64,000 nt of DNA from Pelagomonas calceolata (GCA_918797485.1 CAKKNE010000006.1:1178001-1242000); one strand, 5' to 3'; positions 44,414-53,918 are shown, counted from the stretch's first letter. A program made the numbers and translations. The notes: a model not told the origin generated them from the sequence alone.

Positions 44414-44937
44414 CCCCGTCGGCCGAGGAAGAAGAGGCCTCCGAGCAGCACCAAGGGGAAGAGGAGGTTGGCGGCTAATCCAGCGAGGGCGTCGCCGTCG
44501 CCCGTCGGCGCGGCCTGGACCGCGAAGGGCACGGACTTGGCCCGTAATTGCGTCACGAGTTCGGGCACCTCCGTCGGGAGGATTTCTACGGAGTGTCTGG
44601 CGCCGTCGGCGTCCAGCGCGAGTAAATTCTTGGAGTCGGCGGAGAAGACGACGCGCTCGACGCCGTCCTTGCCGACCACATCCAAAAATTCGGAGACGGC
44701 CCACCTGGACCCTTCGGCGGCGAAGGCCGCTTTACTGGAAGCGAGGGCGGCGCCGGCGGCCAGCGAGGCGCCGAACGCGCGGCGGCCCTGCATCGACATG
44801 GCTACCGTGTTGGCCCGCGGGCCGTTGGCCCGCGGGCCGCTGCGGCGGGCCGTCGTGGGCAGCTGCATCGAAAAGGCCGCCACCTCATTGCCTAGGAGGA
44901 GCGCGGCTAGCGCGAGGGAGCGCGAAGTTTTCGGCAT
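42880..44937 (-). CDS. ftsH: Plastid ATP-dependent zinc metalloprotease FtsH
   Basis: Bipartite presequence (VAAF) plus twin-Arg lumenal signal; GPPGTGKT, IIFIDEIDA, LLRPGRFDR, HEAGH, LGGRVAEE. Confidence 0.92.
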
Positions 44938-45451
44938 CGTGGTTTGCGTGTTTTCGCGCGCGCGCTTGCAAAAAGCGGTGCGCGTAGGCGTGAGGGATGT
45001 GTAGAGCAGCTTTTGCACAGCGTGGTATCCTTGCTGCTGTTCAGGTGGCGGTGTATGACCTAAATGAGCTGTCTGCGGTGGCAACACGAGCTTAAGGTGC
45101 GGGGTTACCACGATAACTTGACCCCCCATTTTCCCCGTCCAAAACACCGTCAGCATGGTCGCACTTGCTGCTTGTACAAGTAGAACGGCAGAAAATAGCC
45201 ATGCGCGAACTTGACGTCCCCGCGTCGCGCCCCGCGTTTCATGCCCCAGGACACGTCCTCGCCCTGCGCTACTTCCCGGAGACATCCCGCAGACGACTCC
45301 TGGCGCGTCGGGAGCGTTTCGCGGGGGGCAAGCGCGGAGCTCATTTTTGCCAAGGTCTGCCGTGTCCAAATTGGAGCTACTCAAACGCGGCAATAATTGA
45401 CATGATGGGAACAGAAATTCGGCAGCAGGACCGCTGATTACAGCTTACGCG

Positions 45452-47815
45452 ATGTGTGAAGCGATAGCAGCCAACAGCAACGCTACGCCGAGCACGACTC
45501 AAACAATGGATGCAGCCGGCGCCAGCACTGCCACACTGCTCGAGGACTACGATGCCGCAAACGTGCGACCGTGGCCGCACCAGCTCGACGCCATCCGCGC
45601 CATCCAACAAACGAAGAGCCAGCGCTGCCTCGTCCAGCACGCGGCCGGCTCCGGCAAGTCGCTGACCATCGCGGGACTCGCGTCGTCGCTCGCGGACGAC
45701 GGCTTCCGGGTCGTCGTGATCTGTGATAGACGCCAGCTCGATGCGCAGATCTACGCGACGGTGCGGCGCGTGTGTCAGAGGCGCCACAGCGTCGGACGCG
45801 CTGCATCGGTCGCGGACCTCGCGACGGCGACGGCGACGGTGCTCTGCACGACGCTCCAGAAGGTGAGTCGCGTTTCTCAATCGCAACGCTCCACAAAGAA
45901 GACCGCCGTCCTCGTCGACGAGTGCCACCGGTCCTACGCTGATGAACAGGTGTGGCGGCGGCTCGACGAGGCGCTCGGCGCGCCCTCTCTGATCGTCAGG
46001 TTCCGTGCGCAAATCAGATTTGACACGTCTGCTCGATGGCGTGACGGTGTTGATTGCACGCAGGTGGGCTTCACGGCGACGCCCGAAGACCGCGAGTTGG
46101 CGACGCTCGGCAACCCACTCCATTGCTTCCCGCTCTCGTCCGCGATCCAGCACGGCTTCGTGCTCGACGTGCTCAGGGACTTCCGGGCGCCGCGGCTGCC
46201 CGTCACTGTGTTAGATGCGGTGTCGAAGCGGCCTGTGGACGACGCGCGCCTGCGGCGCCTCGCCCTCGAGACGGCACAGGTCGTCCAAGCAAAAGCTTCG
46301 CACGCTGCCTTGGAAATCAGAGCCGTCCAGCGGACGTGGCCGCGCGCCCGTGCCATGGTCATCTGTAGATCGAGAAGGGCCGTCGCGACCTGGACCCGTT
46401 CGTTGAGACGCCTCGAGCTGCGGACGTACGGCGCGTTTTCCGGCGCCTTGAGCGACGGTCTCGACGAGTCCAAGCTCAACCCCTTATTGGCGTTGAACGA
46501 GGCCGAGGTCGTGGTGGTCTGCGGGAAACTGGAGGCTGGCTACGACGACCCTTTACTGGCTTGTTTGATCGTTGACCGCCACGTCAGCTCGCCGGCGCGC
46601 CTCGTCCAAATTTATTCAAGGGTGAACCGGGCGTCACCAAACAAGCCACCGCCGCGCGTGGTGGATTTCGCGAACGGCGCCGACTTCGTGGCGTTCGCGT
46701 TCCGGCGGTTCTGGCGCGAGCGCAAATTGGATGAGCGGGACCGGTCGCGGCTCGGCGCCGCGGCGTTCCGCGCGCTCTCGTATATTGACGCCGCCGGCGC
46801 CGCGAATTTGGACACCTCAAACGCCGCGTCGCGCGTCGCCACGGTGCTCGGCGCGGACGCGGCGGCGGCTCTTGGAGCGGATGCCGCGATCGTCGCGGCG
46901 TCGAGGGACGAGGCCTGCCCCGAGTTCCCGGCGGCGTACGCGCGGCAAATTACCGCCGCGATCGGCGAAGCGAAGGACGACGACGCCGACGCGGCGACGA
47001 CGTTTAAAGCCGCGAACGTGGCCGTCACCGTCGGCGCCGTCGTCGACGGCGGGAACACGACGCTCGCCGTCGAGGCGGTCGCTTGCCTACCGACGCACGG
47101 CGGCGCCGGTCCGTCGTTGCGGCCCGGCGAGTCGCTCGCGGACCTCACCCGGAGAGCGGCGCGCGGCCACCTCGCGTCCGTATTAGCGAGCGTGACGTCG
47201 GCCCTCGCGGCCGCGCCCGACGCGGCTTCGAGGCTCGCGGCGTTGCGTCGATTGGACCGCCTCGCCGTCGACGATGCCGCGGCGATCGCAAGTTCGGGCG
47301 TCGGGCGCGCGGCGGCGGCGCTCAAAAAATCTCCGGATCCTGATGTAGCCGCGCTGGCGCGCCGGGTGGTTTCCGAGGCGAAGAAGCGCGTCGCCGCGGC
47401 GTTGCCGCCAGACGCGACGCCCAAGCTCGTGGCCTTGGGCCTGCCGCAAGATATTGCCGCCGCCGTCGCGGCCGCCGCCCGAAACAAGCCCGCGGCGGAG
47501 GTCCGAGCTCTCATTGCCGATCTCAAACGCAACGACGCGTTGCGAGGCCGCGTCGCGACGGGCGCACTCTCCGCGGCTTCGCTGGTAGCGATGGGCGCCG
47601 ACGACCGATGCCGCGAGGACCGGAAACGCAAGGCGCCGCCGCCCGTCGTCGAGGAGGAGATCCTCGCCGAGGGCTACGTGTGCGAGACGTGCGGCTCGAC
47701 GCGGATCACGTGCGCCACGGAGTCGCGGCCGACAACCTCATACGGCACGTCCGAGTTCCGGCAGATCCTGTTCCTCGACTGTCTCGACTGTGGAAGGTCT
47801 TGGCAAGAAGACTAG
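45452..47815 (+). CDS. HsdR (type I restriction R subunit)-like SF2 motor fused to TFIIS N-terminal, central and Zn-ribbon domains; intron 45995-46063
   Basis: QHAAGSGKS, VVICDRRQLDAQ, TTLQK, VDECHRS, GFTATP, AI..GFVLDVL, AMVI..SR, AFSG, K..AGYD.P.L...VDR, VQ.YSRVNR..P.K...VDFAN; then TFIIS-like domains ending C..C...C..CGRSW. Confidence 0.75.
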   Translation: MCEAIAANSNATPSTTQTMDAAGASTATLLEDYDAANVRPWPHQLDAIRAIQQTKSQRCLVQHAAGSGKSLTIAGLASSLADDGFRVVVICDRRQLDAQIYATVRRVCQRRHSVGRAASVADLATATATVLCTTLQKVSRVSQSQRSTKKTAVLVDECHRSYADEQVWRRLDEALGAPSLIVRFRAQIRFDTSARWRDGVDCTQVGFTATPEDRELATLGNPLHCFPLSSAIQHGFVLDVLRDFRAPRLPVTVLDAVSKRPVDDARLRRLALETAQVVQAKASHAALEIRAVQRTWPRARAMVICRSRRAVATWTRSLRRLELRTYGAFSGALSDGLDESKLNPLLALNEAEVVVVCGKLEAGYDDPLLACLIVDRHVSSPARLVQIYSRVNRASPNKPPPRVVDFANGADFVAFAFRRFWRERKLDERDRSRLGAAAFRALSYIDAAGAANLDTSNAASRVATVLGADAAAALGADAAIVAASRDEACPEFPAAYARQITAAIGEAKDDDADAATTFKAANVAVTVGAVVDGGNTTLAVEAVACLPTHGGAGPSLRPGESLADLTRRAARGHLASVLASVTSALAAAPDAASRLAALRRLDRLAVDDAAAIASSGVGRAAAALKKSPDPDVAALARRVVSEAKKRVAAALPPDATPKLVALGLPQDIAAAVAAAARNKPAAEVRALIADLKRNDALRGRVATGALSAASLVAMGADDRCREDRKRKAPPPVVEEEILAEGYVCETCGSTRITCATESRPTTSYGTSEFRQILFLDCLDCGRSWQED
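45995..46063 (+). mobile_element. 69-nt in-frame GT-AG intron, decayed introner-like
   Basis: Removal restores helicase motif III LIVGFTATP; GTCAGGTT vs GTGGGCTT (5/8); ends CCGTGCGCAAATCA / TTGATTGCACGCAG. Confidence 0.7.
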
Positions 47816-49781: not shown

Positions 49782-52755
49782 TTACCCGCCCCCCTCCTCC
49801 GGTGAAGAAGACTTCTGCGCCCGCAGCCGCTCGATCAGCGTCGCGCGCGCGTCCAGGCCCCGCTTGACCCGCGACTCCAGGCCGCGCGCCTCGCACAGCC
49901 GCCGCAGCTCCGCCACTTTGAGAGCGGAGAACTCGTCGCGGTCGTCTTCACTCACGACCTCGACCTTGGACGCCTTCCGCGCGCTCTTGACGATGGCCGC
50001 CAAACCGGTTTTGAGGTAGTTTTGCCGCGCCTTCTCGTCCGGGAGTCGAGCCCAGTCAAAATACGGGACATGTAAGACCCGCCACCCCAGAGCGCGCAAC
50101 AAGCGGACCTTGAAATTCGTCCGCCCCGTCGGTAACCTCTTCTCATTCCGGAAGTAGTGCCGAGGGCCGTCGAATTCCACGGCGACGCGCCACCTCAAAG
50201 GCTTCAGCGCGACGTCGACGCTCAGACCGTCGGGAATCACGAACTCGTGGACGACCTCCAACCCGAGCGCTTCCAACGACTGCGCGACCTCGTCCTGGGC
50301 TCTAGATGGAGACGCGTCGGCCTCCGCTAAAGAACGCCGCAATAACCCGGTAAAGCCGGCCGGCGCGCGCGCGATGTCCGTAACGAGCCCGTCCATGTTC
50401 GTGCCGCGCCCCGAGTTTCTCGCATGCAAGACAACTTGCTGGAGCTGCCGCAGCTCCTCGATCGTGAAGCACTGGGTGGCGTCGTCGGCCGCGACCTCGA
50501 CGACCGCGTTCCAGAGCTTTCTTAGTAAAGCGCCATCGACGTGGTCGGCGCAGGCGTAGGCCCACGCTAGGTTTGAAAGCTCCTGCGGCGTGAAGCCCGC
50601 CCTCGTCAGGTCGCCGCCGCTCTTGGCGCCGAGCACGAGCGTCATCGTGGCCAGCGAGTCGAACAACTGCTTCGAGCCCTCCGCGTTCTTCGCGAAGGCC
50701 CAGGCCGTGTTCGCGATCTCCTGGGGGTTGAAGCGCGCGGCGCGGTTCTGCTTGGCGATCTCGGACGCCATCGCGTCGAAGAGCTCCGAGGACGAGAGCT
50801 CGGCGGTCGAGAATGCCCAGGCTAAATTCGAGAAGCCCTGGGGCTGGAACTCGGCCACGCGCGGCGCCGCTTCGCTCGCGACGGCGCCGAAGAGTTTCTC
50901 GTGCCGTTGGGCCTCGCCGGCGGCGGCGAACGCCCAAGCAATATTCGATAACCCTTGATCGGAGAAGCGGTCCAATCGTTTATAGGCCGCGCGCGCGATG
51001 TTGTCGAAGAGCTGCCTTTGTATTTTGGCGTCAACAAAGTCATCTCTGCTACAGGTGGCGAAGGCCCAGGCCGTGTTCGCCTATGTGTATGTAGTGAGAG
51101 TGCTTTGCATTAACGGGACACGTACCAGTTCTTGAGGTTTAAATTCGTCCGCGCGCCGCGCCGCTTCGCGCGCGACGGCATCCAATAAACGAGGCGCCCG
51201 GTGCGACGCCGTCGCGAAGGCCCAAGCCGTATTGGCTGTGTGGAAATCAAATTTTGGATGCCCCGCCATCGACGCGACGTCGTCCCCGTAACTGCATCTG
51301 CTCGATGGCGAGGTAACTAACTCACTGTTTGATTTCCACACAGCTAGGCGCCCAGGTTCTGGGCGATGAAGCGCTCGACGCGGCCCTCGGCGCTCGCCGC
51401 GATGGCGTCGAACAATTCTGGAGCCGCGATGGACGCCGTCGCGTACGCCCAGGCCTGCGCGGTTGACATGTAAGCGTTCCTTCCAACTAAATAACGTACC
51501 GTGTTGCCCAGCTCCTGGGCGTTGAACTCGTCGACGCGCTTTGACGCGGCGTCCGCGAGCTCCGAAAATAATTCCTTCCGGACGGCGGGCGTGCCGTCTC
51601 CACTTTTAGCGTAGGACCACAGACAGTTCGCGATGTTCTGCGTCTGCGCCTGCTCGGGGTCGCGCATGAGCGGCACGGCGGCTCTTGCAGCCGTATCCCA
51701 GAATTCGTCCGAGGCCTCGAAGCCGGCGGTCGCGACGGCCCAGACGGCGTTCGCCAGCTCTTGAGCTTTAAAGTCGCCGTCGGGGAAGCGCAGGATGCAC
51801 TCCTCGCTCCAGGCCTCGAACATCGTGCGCGAGGCTTCCGCGCAGGCGACGTCGTCCGGCGCGTTGGTGTTGGGTACGCCGGCGGCGCCCGTTCCGAGTC
51901 TCTTCGCGAAGGCCCAGGCGACCTGCGTGGACGCCGACGGGTGACGCTGTGACCTCCACGCCATCGACGCGACGCCAGCTCGCTCGATTCCGTGGGAAGA
52001 TCTGATTTCCGCGCAGGTCGCACGTTCGCCAATTCCTGGGCGGAGAACTGGGCCAGACGCGGCGTCGCCGACGTCGCGAGCGACGCGTACAGTCTAGGGG
52101 CGTCCAGGTCGGCCGTCGCGAAGGACCACGCAACATTGGCGAGCTCCTGGGCCTTGAAGTCGTCCGGCCGCGTCTCCGCGAGGTCGCCGATCTTCCTAAG
52201 CAAGGAAGCACAGGCAGCTTTAAGAGCTTCCTCGATATCAGAGCCCTGGACCGCCCTTCTTTCGCGAGGATTCGCGTACTTCCGGGGCTGCAACAACTTC
52301 GCGGCGCCCCAGGCCGCGTTCGCGAGCGCCCGCGCGTCCCAGCCGTCGGGGTTCGCGTCGAGCTGGTTCGACGCCGCGAGGATGAGCTCCGCCAGGTTCC
52401 GCGCGTCCTGCGAGTCCACGGCGTAGCCGCCCCGCGGCTGCTTCTTCGCGAGCCAATTTAAGGCCGTCGCGTAGTTCACCTCGCAGAAGTCCTTTTTTCT
52501 CGTATTGAAGAGCCGAAAGATGTCCTCGTGGGACCCGTCGCGGTTCGCGATCTGGCGGTTGAGCTTAATGGCCTGGGGGTTCCAGGACCGGCGCTCCGGT
52601 TCGCGTTCGGGCTCTCGTCGCTTGTGTAAACGCTTCGGGCGCTGCTGGCGCTGCTGTTGCGCGCGGAGCGCGAGCGGGACCCGCGTGCAGACCGGGTGGT
52701 AGAACGAGTCGAGCGGTGCGACCAGCAGCGCTAGGAGTAGCGCGCGGCAGCCCAT
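49782..52755 (-). CDS. Organelle-targeted helical-repeat (OPR/FASTK-like) RNA-binding protein with RAP domain; 4 introns (51923-52023, 51455-51499, 51236-51351, 51081-51125)
   Basis: Many F.AQELAN.AWAFA repeats; RAP motif GLSVDVA...VAVEFDGPRHY...K.RLLRALGWRVLHVPYFDW; SAP-like tail. Splicing joins the ORF fragments in frame. Start MGCRALLLALL. Confidence 0.85.
51081..51125 (-). other. 45-nt GT-AG intron
   Basis: GTACGT...CATAG; removal gives QELANTAWA. Confidence 0.75.
51236..51351 (-). mobile_element. Introner-like GC-AG intron with perfect 15-bp TIR, inserted antisense relative to the 9747 copy
   Basis: CTGTGTGGAAATCAA (51236-51250) / TTGATTTCCACACAG (51329-51343); removal gives QNLANTAWA; no intact TSD. 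Confidence 0.8.
51455..51499 (-). other. 45-nt in-frame GT-AG intron
   Basis: GTACGT...CGCAG; removal gives ELGNTAWAY. Confidence 0.75.
51923..52023 (-). mobile_element. 101-nt GT-AG intron, decayed introner-like
   Basis: GTGCGAC-CTGCGCGGAAATCAG...GTCGCGTCGATGGCGT...CCACGCAG; removal gives QELANVAWAFA. Confidence 0.75.
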
Positions 52756-52962
52756 GGCCAGCCGGTCTACGGGGTAGCGCTCGCGCTGGCCCGGTGACTG
52801 CAACTGCAGGCCAGAGCTAATTGCTCCAGAGGTACGGTAGCGTGCGGTTTGGTTGAGCGTACGCGAGTAGTGCGACAAGGGGTGCTTCTGAAGACTCTTA
52901 CTGCCGCGTTGGTCTGCTGCCAGAGCCACGCAGCGCCTGCAACGCGCCGGCGCCGCAGGCTG

Positions 52963-52985
52963 GCTAGCGGCATGTAAGACACTAG
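52963..52985 (+). promoter_or_regulatory. Recurrent promoter motif copy
   Basis: GCTAGCGGCATGTAAGACACTAG in a divergent gap. Confidence 0.7.
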
Positions 52986-53147
52986 CGCACCCTAACAAAA
53001 TCGTCTGCCAGGCCGCTCTGGCCATCCAACGGCCGCGCCTGGCTGTCGACCTGCGCTTTTGCACTGTCGAAGCCGTCTTGCTGCGCTGTATCGGTTTTCC
53101 CGCTTGTTTGAACACTGCGCCCCAGCGGTGCACAAGGCGCCTCCAAG

Positions 53148-53918
53148 ATGGTCGTACCGCGGGAAGTAATGGACGCTGCGGAGGCTGGCAATATCACAGT
53201 AGTGCGCGAGTGGCTCGAGAGCGGTGGCGACGCGAATGACAGGAGCCAAAACGGCAGCAATGCGCTACTCGCGGATGTTTGTGGGGCAGGCGGGCAAGGC
53301 GAGATCTCAGAGGCTCACCTCGACGTGGTGCGTCTGCTAATAGCACGCGGTGCAGACGTCAATGGTGCCGAATCGAATGGGTTCGGCCCCCTACATTGTT
53401 GTACCGTTTATCCAGAGCACAGCTGGTACGGGCCCATAATAGGGCTCATCCTAGAGGCCGGCGCCAATGTGCATGCGAAGACTGGCGATGGAGAAACTCC
53501 CTTGGGTGTGACGTTGGCCTGCTCAATTTGGAACGGAACGGACACGGCGAGTTCGTGTCTAGACGTAGTTACCAGATTGCTTCGAGCCGGGGCGGGGCTG
53601 GACGCAATCCAACGCGATAGAAGTGCTGAAGATATGCTGCGTAGCGAGGAAGCGCATAATTCCAGATTGTTCCCTGACTTCTACGTCTGCAAAACTCTCA
53701 TATCAGACTATCGAGCGGCCGGACAAACCTGGAAGGGCTACGTTCGAGCGCTACCCAAGGAGCTGCTCCGCCTCCGGTCGCTCGTCGCGCGCGGCCGCGC
53801 ACGAGAGAAAGTGCGGACGCGCACGAAGACGCCGCGCGAGATCGCGCTCCTCTTCGCGCCGGCGTTTCCGAACGAGCTCTTCTGGAAGGTCTCTGAGTAC
53901 TGGAACCCGCGCTCCTAG
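53148..53918 (+). CDS. Ankyrin-repeat protein
   Basis: AAEAGN...V..WL..GGD.N, VVRLLIARGADVN, G.GPLH, GANVHA..GETPL. Confidence 0.8.
   Translation: MVVPREVMDAAEAGNITVVREWLESGGDANDRSQNGSNALLADVCGAGGQGEISEAHLDVVRLLIARGADVNGAESNGFGPLHCCTVYPEHSWYGPIIGLILEAGANVHAKTGDGETPLGVTLACSIWNGTDTASSCLDVVTRLLRAGAGLDAIQRDRSAEDMLRSEEAHNSRLFPDFYVCKTLISDYRAAGQTWKGYVRALPKELLRLRSLVARGRAREKVRTRTKTPREIALLFAPAFPNELFWKVSEYWNPRS

What the first reader, a model, noticed from the sequence alone, without database searches (positions are those of the whole stretch)
45452..47815. Bacterial type I restriction motor (HsdR-like) fused to a complete TFIIS-like module in a eukaryote
Seen: the N-terminal ~430 aa carry HsdR-specific motifs, not just generic SF2 motifs (QHAAGSGKS; VVICDRRQLDAQ; TTLQK; DECHRS; GFTATP; AI..GFVLDVL; AFSG; K..AGYD.P.L..VDR; VQ.YSRVNR..P.K..VDFAN). 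The ORF starts just before the Q motif, so there is no N-terminal nuclease domain, and no hsdM/hsdS is nearby. The C-terminal ~230 aa read as TFIIS domain I (L..L..L.....I.SSGVG..A..LKK.....VA.LAR.VV...K), domain II (R.LI.DLK.N..LR.RV..G.LS...LV.M) and a C4 zinc ribbon (YVCETCG...CLDCGRSW). The ribbon's hairpin is ...YGTSE.. rather than the catalytic RSADEP. An intron and host-like GC indicate genuine nuclear integration. Inference: a horizontally acquired dsDNA translocase recruited to RNA Pol II via a non-cleaving TFIIS-like adaptor, perhaps to push or remove stalled polymerase (Mfd/CSB-like) or silence foreign DNA.
Basis: partly seen in the sequence, partly recalled or inferred. Interest (0 to 1): 0.85.

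Follow-up and report, generated by a model that had tools for sequence, protein, structure and literature searches.

The report
Restriction motor fused to TFIIS
An algal nuclear gene, shared with green algae, joins the DNA motor of a bacterial restriction enzyme (without its cutting domain) to a full-length copy of the RNA polymerase II rescue factor TFIIS that lacks TFIIS's RNA-cleavage residues, and it likely frees stalled polymerase by force rather than by cutting RNA.

Summary
Observation confirmed. The gene at 45452-47815 (+) has one 69-nt intron (12 spliced reads) and encodes 764 aa. It carries an HsdR-type SF2 motor with all motifs intact and no nuclease domain, then TFIIS domains I, II and III. 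A family profile matches human TFIIS residues 3-302 in one stretch (E 9e-34). The catalytic DE pair is absent in 19 of 19 C4 ribbons.

It is not a one-off. The same fusion occurs in Chlamydomonas incerta, Pleodorina and Cymbomonas, and in an Atlas cluster of 53. Related motors carry WW (oomycetes), TAGT (dinoflagellates) or no such module (amoebozoans). Forty eukaryote-type motors form one clade (SH-aLRT 94-98) beside a bacterial HsdR subfamily, which points to an old acquisition; an AU test did not enforce a single origin.

Best mechanism (about 0.42, untested): a Pol II-tethered dsDNA translocase that resolves stalls mechanically.

Caveats: this lineage's domain II is eroded; RNA depth is zero at 46896-47157; Pol II binding could not be modelled. 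Eight searches of an open-access library showed no title or abstract describing it, and the scan had not found it before.

The parts
45452..45994 (+). Exon 1 (aa 1-181): short low-confidence N-terminus, Q motif and first RecA lobe; no nuclease domain
   Evidence: pLDDT <50 only for aa 2-21; RNA depth starts in bin 45324-45454
45635..45661 (+). Walker A, QHAAGSGKS (aa 62-70)
   Evidence: QH..GSGK[ST] in 12 of 12 fusions checked
45917..45934 (+). Motif II, DECHRS (aa 156-161)
   Evidence: DE.HR in 12 of 12 fusions; same DECHRS as EcoR124I HsdR
45995..46063 (+). 69-nt GT..AG intron, in frame
   Evidence: 12 junction reads, 45994 to 46064, in 4 runs of one sample; absent from P0001, P0004, P0007
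46064..46720 (+). Motif III (GFTATP) and second RecA lobe with motifs V and VI (aa 182-400)
   Evidence: T1R_D3-like 4e-6
46721..47140 (+). Helical and C-terminal region (aa 401-540), possibly the remnant of the HsdR C-terminal domain; holds most of the zero-depth RNA stretch
   Evidence: Atlas lead only: EcoR124_C clusters at 0.85; helical in model; RNA depth 0 at 46896-47157
47153..47395 (+). TFIIS domain I (TND/LW helical bundle), aa about 545-625; conserved W replaced by A in this lineage
   Evidence: Med26 PF08711 above cut-off; TIGR01385 positions 9-77
47408..47635 (+). TFIIS domain II (shortened) and linker, aa about 630-705, ending in a basic RKRK cluster (possible nuclear signal, inferred)
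   Evidence: TFIIS_M 7.6e-5, below cut-off here and above it in P0020, P0023, P0053, P0083
47681..47791 (+). C4 zinc ribbon (aa 721-757) with a 29-residue loop (24 in human TFIIS), tip SYGT, no DE pair; E745 at the Asp-equivalent position
   Evidence: long beta hairpin 729-740/743-754; 92% identical to P0004, the most conserved part
47813..47815 (+). Stop codon TAG

Best explanation
This is one spliced, expressed nuclear gene for a nuclease-less HsdR-type motor fused to a full-length TFIIS homologue without the catalytic DE pair, and it likely works as an RNA polymerase II-tethered, ATP-driven DNA translocase that resolves stalled or backtracked polymerase by force instead of by RNA cleavage. 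Shown: the anatomy, the intact motor motifs, loss of the nuclease, loss of DE, and conservation from this alga to named green algae. Step 1 (inferred from TFIIS and Bye1): domain II docks on the Rpb1 jaw, competing with ordinary TFIIS. Step 2 (inferred): the lengthened ribbon hairpin enters the secondary channel and loosens the backtracked RNA without promoting cleavage. Step 3 (inferred from HsdR): the motor grips duplex DNA, probably downstream because of where TFIIS binds, and translocates. This tows Pol II forward to re-register the RNA 3' end, or collapses the bubble and releases it at a hard block.
For: Motor: motifs intact in 12 of 12 fusions. The HsdR profile match is 5e-41. The AF2 model has pLDDT 87, and 8 of its top 10 Foldseek rows are HsdR chains.

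TFIIS part: collinear with human TFIIS 3-302 at 9e-34, and the profile also hits PHF3 and Bye1. TIGR01385 hits 11 of 12 fusions and 0 of 2 bacterial controls. DE is absent in 19 of 19 C4 ribbons, yet the ribbon is the best-conserved region between P0001 and both P0004 and P0007 (92% and 56%), so it is under selection for something other than canonical cleavage.

Second hint of a Pol II link: the oomycete group has a WW domain instead (5 Pfam hits). WW binding of the phosphorylated Pol II CTD is recalled, not checked.

Precedents (passages read): TFIIS-like domains bind the Pol II jaw and compete with TFIIS (PMC10111866). HelD couples a long secondary-channel arm to a helicase-like ATPase to recycle stalled RNAP (PMC7749167). 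Mfd pushes backtracked RNAP forward or releases it (PMC8501993).
Against: No activity or binding was measured. In this lineage domain II is short and its basic helix begins AAEVR where human TFIIS has YKNRVR and most non-pelagophyte-type relatives have Y-K/R. The domain I Trp is also lost. The hairpin tip differs between lineages, which is odd for a fixed contact with a conserved active site. An Asp-equivalent Glu is kept in 13 of 19 ribbons, so weak cleavage stimulation is not excluded. P0184 and P0298 lack the third Cys. Amoebozoan-type, oomycete and dinoflagellate members have no TFIIS module, so the motor has a Pol II-independent or differently targeted role. A DE-less paralogue can be a plain inhibitor (TFS4, PMC5715097). 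RNA reads do not bridge 46896-47157.
Confidence: 0.42

Rival explanations
1. A repressor or terminator: the DE-less TFIIS module blocks Pol II (as TFS4 or PHF3 do), and the motor strips the arrested polymerase, perhaps at modified or foreign DNA.
For: TFS4 lacks the acidic pair and is a potent inhibitor (PMC5715097, passages). PHF3 displaces TFIIS and leaves Pol II stalled (PMC10111866, passages). The Glu291-equivalent position is never acidic and is Arg in the green-algal members. Three relatives fuse the motor to a TET-associated glycosyltransferase, linking the family to DNA base modification.
Against: The window protein has no reader of modified bases or sequence. It has no lysine tip like TFS4's. 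It is expressed at a low level in an ordinary gene neighbourhood. None of 31 viral loci carries the module.
Confidence: 0.22
2. A general DNA-repair or chromatin translocase (RadD- or Irc3-like). The TFIIS part only recruits it to transcribed chromatin, through domain I partners, and does not act on the Pol II active site.
For: RadD is the top fold match (Foldseek rank 1; Z 18.6, rmsd 3.8, 310 aligned). Seven amoebozoan-type members have no TFIIS module and sit as sister group. Domain I is the only TFIIS part above Pfam's cut-off in the window protein.
Against: The fold scores of SF2 families are close together. Recruitment alone does not explain why domains II and III are kept in order from this alga to green algae, or why the ribbon is the most conserved region.
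Confidence: 0.22
3. It is still a cleavage-stimulating TFIIS variant that uses one acidic residue, with the motor as a helper.
For: Glu at the Asp-equivalent position in 13 of 19 ribbons, across two lineages.
Against: TFIIS-type factors use two acidic residues at the tip (PMC5715097, passages). The loop is 2-5 residues longer than TFIIS's, which moves this Glu off the modelled tip. Six of 19 ribbons have no acid there.
Confidence: 0.07
4. At this locus the two halves are separate transcripts, or the TFIIS half is decaying.
For: Zero RNA depth at 46896-47157 in all 4 runs. A bin of similar GC (0.75) in the next gene keeps 11-22x. Domain II is eroded.
Against: One open frame with no stop. 28 stored proteins from three identity levels span motif VI to the ribbon. 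No read ends cluster at the gap. The 5'-weighted run X24 has no peak at the start of the TFIIS half. GC stays at 0.70-0.76 for about 800 nt here.
Confidence: 0.05

Closest known systems
HsdR, the motor-nuclease subunit of type I restriction-modification enzymes (EcoR124I; the DEAHSS subfamily is closest)
   Same: SF2 motor motifs and fold; sister group in the tree at about 30% identity; possibly part of the C-terminal domain (lead only).
   Different: No HSDR_N nuclease (0 of 28 eukaryote-type proteins, 2 of 2 bacterial controls); no HsdM or HsdS nearby; spliced nuclear gene; fused to TFIIS.
TFIIS (TCEA1/Dst1)
   Same: Domains I, II and C4 ribbon in order; one collinear match to residues 3-302.
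   Different: No DE pair, longer hairpin, fused to a motor; domain II eroded in this lineage.
HelD of Gram-positive bacteria
   Same: One chain combining a helicase-family ATPase with a long secondary-channel arm; recycles stalled RNAP (PMC7749167, passages). The closest functional analogue.
   Different: HelD is SF1, has an acidic arm tip and a clamp arm, and acts on bacterial RNAP. No homology was seen.
Mfd, Eta, TTF2 and CSB/Rad26 polymerase-moving translocases
   Same: ATP motors on duplex DNA that push forward or release stalled polymerase (PMC8501993, passages on Mfd, Eta, TTF2; CSB/Rad26 recalled).
   Different: Different SF2 families. None is fused to a secondary-channel factor. Mfd and CSB act from upstream DNA (recalled).
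TFS4, Bye1 and PHF3 (non-cleaving TFIIS relatives)
   Same: TFIIS-like binding modules without cleavage residues (PMC5715097, PMC10111866, passages); Bye1 and PHF3 are profile hits.
   Different: None has a motor. TFS4 has a shorter lysine-tipped hairpin. Bye1 and PHF3 lack domain III.

Membership tests
Type I R-M HsdR | SF2 motor with HsdR-type motifs | tested here: met
   PF18766 5e-23, T1R_D3-like 4e-6; PDB profile 5e-41
Type I R-M HsdR | N-terminal nuclease domain (HSDR_N) | tested here: not met
   Walker A at aa 62 versus about 260-370 in full-length bacterial relatives; no PF04313 hit
Type I R-M HsdR | Linked hsdM and hsdS genes | tested here: not met
   None among 43 window ORFs; the rest of the genome is not held. 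Control: N6_Mtase within 5 kb in 3 of 6 bacterial loci
Type I R-M HsdR | Curated score of TIGR00348 | tested here: not met
   81.8 bits (window) and 96.3 (P0001) versus 284.55; two true bacterial relatives also fall short at 189 and 204
Type I R-M HsdR | ATP-driven dsDNA translocation | not testable with these tools
   Motifs are intact; needs an assay
TFIIS (TCEA) | Domains I, II, III in order | tested here: met
   Profile versus human TCEA1 residues 3-302, one stretch, 9e-34
TFIIS (TCEA) | Domain II at Pfam cut-off with its basic helix | tested here: inconclusive
   23.5 versus 29.2 bits in the window protein; above cut-off in P0020, P0023, P0053, P0083; YK.R lost here
TFIIS (TCEA) | Acidic DE pair at the ribbon tip | tested here: not met
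   0 of 19 C4 ribbons; one Glu at the Asp-equivalent position in 13 of 19
TFIIS (TCEA) | Binds the Pol II jaw and funnel | not tested
Ordinary eukaryotic SF2 families (XPB, Snf2, DEAD-box) | Best sequence match within the family | tested here: not met
   No XPB or Snf2 among 13 PDB hits at E<=0.01; no PF00176 hit for the window protein. PF18766's name is misleading: every bacterial HsdR tested carries it
Irc3-like mitochondrial translocase | Groups with Irc3; organelle targeting | not tested
   No Irc3 sequence was in hand and no targeting predictor was run
HelD / Mfd / CSB | Sequence homology beyond shared helicase folds | tested here: inconclusive
   Not among the sequence hits; Mfd and CSB appear only as generic SF2 fold matches, Z 15-16

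The most novel reading that the evidence does not exclude
Eukaryotes domesticated a bacterial restriction motor early, and several algal lineages welded it to a cleavage-dead TFIIS. The result would be an undescribed, cleavage-independent way to rescue or remove stalled Pol II, a eukaryotic counterpart of HelD and Mfd. Oomycetes would have re-targeted the same motor to Pol II with a WW domain, and dinoflagellates to base modification with TAGT.
Probability: 0.35. Interest if true: 0.88.

Novelty: new variant of a known kind. Interest (0 to 1): 0.72.

Why it matters
Known Pol II rescue splits the work: TFIIS cuts RNA and separate translocases push. A single chain that holds a cleavage-dead TFIIS and a restriction-enzyme motor suggests another route for handling stalled Pol II, in lineages absent from yeast and animal work. 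It also shows a type I R-M motor kept across several eukaryotic supergroups with changing partners (TFIIS, WW, TAGT). Named green-algal members make it testable with standard genetics and Pol II assays.

Tried and rejected
No whole genome is held. I could not check for hsdM/hsdS elsewhere or for a separate ordinary TFIIS.

The second read lay, meant to bridge the RNA gap with contigs, gave no result, so the gap stays open.

The single-sequence fold failed (pLDDT 40). The alignment-based fold worked. Fold searches covered only the motor (residues 15-511), so the TFIIS part was not tested by structure.

This says nothing about binding.

The careful tree did not finish, so supports are SH-aLRT from quick trees. 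The AU test did not reject placing the three closest rows with the bacterial group (p 0.325). A single eukaryotic origin is favoured, not proven.

DExHR as a eukaryote marker: rejected, since distant bacterial HsdR has it too.

Virus as carrier: 31 viral loci gave only 21-26% matches with long N-termini and no TFIIS module.

Literature: searches listed nothing whose title or abstract describes this family. The 'HsdR' hits in PMC13547706 were 'HsDrosha'. PMC4738411 and bioRxiv 2021.11.30.470311 do not mention HsdR or TFIIS in their main text. The recalled 2013 paper that defined TAGT was not held; it and its supplements could mention the TAGT fusion. Subscription journals were not searched.

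Full report
1. The locus. The window is eukaryotic nuclear DNA. Its ORFs carry Ras, RhoGAP, PHD, FYVE, kelch and cyclophilin families, and no HsdM or HsdS family appears among 43 ORFs scanned. I take the organism to be a pelagophyte-like alga. That is inferred from GC, gene content and a recalled intron type; no call names it. The gene lies between an FtsH gene transcribed away from it and a convergent gene of no known family. The frame 45452-47815 is open. A 69-nt GT..AG intron at 45995-46063 is spliced in 6+1+2+3 reads of four runs from one sample, giving 764 aa. GC3 is 0.80-0.86, against 0.90 for FtsH.

2. One transcript or two. Reads of the expected strand cover 45324-46895 and 47158-47812 at low depth (up to 25x), but depth is zero at 46896-47157 in all four runs. 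For one transcript: there is no stop; no read ends cluster at the gap; run X24 is 5'-weighted on the next gene and has no peak at the start of the TFIIS half; GC is 0.70-0.76 for about 800 nt; and 28 stored proteins in three identity groups span motif VI to the ribbon. Against a pure GC explanation: a 0.75 bin in the next gene keeps 11-22x. The gap is not bridged by any read that I saw.

3. The motor. Pfam and NCBIfam rank HsdR-type models first. A profile of 20 family members hits EcoR124I HsdR at 5e-41, RadD at 4e-9, and no XPB or Snf2 at E<=0.01. The AF2 model has pLDDT 87 and pTM 0.76. Its top 10 Foldseek rows are 8 HsdR and 2 RadD chains; the wide structural search ties many SF2 families. 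Walker A is at residue 62, against about 260-370 in full-length bacterial relatives, so the nuclease is gone. Residues 400-560 resemble HsdR C-terminal clusters at lead level only (0.85).

4. The TFIIS part. A profile of 17 sequences matches human TFIIS residues 3-302 in one stretch at 9e-34. It also hits yeast TFIIS, Elongin A, PHF3 and Bye1. TIGR01385 hits 11 of 12 fusions (not P0007) and 0 of 2 bacterial controls. The ribbon loop is 26-29 residues against 24 in TFIIS. DE is absent in 19 of 19 C4 ribbons. The Glu-equivalent position is never acidic; the Asp-equivalent position is Glu in 13 of 19. Two further sequences lack the third Cys. The window's lineage is the most eroded: a short first helix of domain II, AAEVR for YKNRVR, and A for the domain I Trp. 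Yet the ribbon is its best-conserved region (92% to P0004 against 82% for the motor).

5. A family. The first search found 8 close relatives, among them full fusions at 90, 73 and 42%. The Atlas top hit (0.98, 230 shared features) is a cluster of 53 members with the motor in 94-98% and Med26 in 81%; phylum is known for only 2 of them, and it may be this protein's own cluster. Profile searches and name look-ups gave four architectures. Motor plus TFIIS: Chlamydomonas incerta, Pleodorina starrii, Cymbomonas tetramitiformis and unnamed members, 13 distinct representatives. WW plus motor: Pythium oligandrum, Peronosclerospora sorghi. Motor plus TAGT: Durusdinium trenchii and two unnamed proteins. 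Motor without these: Entamoeba, Balamuthia, Tieghemostelium. A Hanusia phi fragment also appears. HSDR_N was found in 0 of 28 eukaryote-type proteins and 2 of 2 bacterial controls. A TFIIS-part profile hit 51 of 302 stored proteins, none of them bacterial, WW-type, TAGT-type or amoebozoan-type, and 0 of 111 viral and prokaryotic loci.

6. Origin. The tree used 83 motors: 40 eukaryote-type, 28 close bacterial and 15 distant bacterial, picked by hand from 262 extracted. Near-duplicates and fragments such as P0083 and P0202 were left out. Ten of the 40 carry a species name and one more comes from EukProt; for the other 29 the label is inferred. The 40 form one clade (SH-aLRT 98 under LG+G4; 94 under PMSF), sister to and not inside the close bacterial group. 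Seven amoebozoan-type rows are sister to a 33-row clade (96/94) that holds all fusions and the WW and TAGT forms. The bacterial sisters are true HsdR: HSDR_N in 6 of 6, a methylase within 5 kb in 3 of 6, about 30% identity, spread over many phyla. The careful search did not finish, and the AU test did not reject moving the three closest rows to the bacterial side (p 0.325). So an old single acquisition is favoured and not proven. The shared, identically placed DE-less TFIIS module supports a common origin of the fusions.

7. How it likely works. TFIIS-like domains bind the Pol II jaw and compete with TFIIS (PMC10111866, passages). Cleavage factors need two acidic residues at the tip, and a paralogue without them inhibits (PMC5715097, passages). 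HelD uses a longer-than-Gre arm plus a helicase-like ATPase to displace nucleic acids from stalled RNAP (PMC7749167, passages). Mfd pushes backtracked RNAP forward or releases it (PMC8501993, passages). HsdR as a duplex-DNA translocase is recalled. Putting these together, I infer docking through domain II, a non-cutting hairpin in the secondary channel, and a motor on nearby duplex DNA that moves or ejects Pol II (0.42). Rivals are a repressor or terminator (0.22), a repair or chromatin motor merely tagged to transcribed DNA (0.22), a weak cleavage factor (0.07), and two transcripts or decay (0.05). Binding could not be modelled.

8. Novelty. It is not a member of HsdR or of TFIIS by their defining features, but it is built from both. 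Database entries name members only by domain. Eight literature searches aimed at the family (listings and abstract starts seen) showed no description. The library lacks most subscription journals, and the paper defining TAGT was not held. PMC12462365 (passages) was read for TFIIS background only. A word search returned two notes on giant-virus R-M pairs.

9. Verdict. It is a new variant of a known kind (polymerase-moving ATP motors) with an architecture not found in print here. Interest 0.72.

Noticed in passing
P0052, P0095, P0114 (P0052 = Durusdinium trenchii): The same nuclease-less motor is fused to a TET-associated glycosyltransferase (PF20691, E 1e-11 to 2e-14), suggesting a motor-coupled DNA base-modifying enzyme in dinoflagellates.
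   Followed up: partly
P0014, P0017, P0018, P0025, P0028: Oomycete-type members have an N-terminal WW domain and no TFIIS module.
   Followed up: partly
P0188, P0191: The Balamuthia member adds armadillo repeats and the Tieghemostelium member a PF01805 domain (precomputed Pfam).
   Followed up: no
window 45402-45437 (+): A short out-of-frame ATG-started ORF (11 codons) ends just before the main start and may lie in the 5' leader.
   Followed up: no
window 45069-45450: The FtsH transcript end clusters at 45069-45070 on the minus strand, about 300-380 nt from this gene's start: a likely shared divergent promoter.
   Followed up: no
window 44931-44932: A few FtsH reads have loose, non-matching ends here in two runs (table 7); unexplained.
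   Followed up: no
window 49785-53193 (-): A multi-exon helical-repeat gene ending in a RAP domain, typical of organelle RNA factors (recalled).
   Followed up: no
P0312: An Aureoumbra-labelled Rpb1 of 2194 aa carries PF14890 in its precomputed domains, possibly an intein in Pol II.
   Followed up: no
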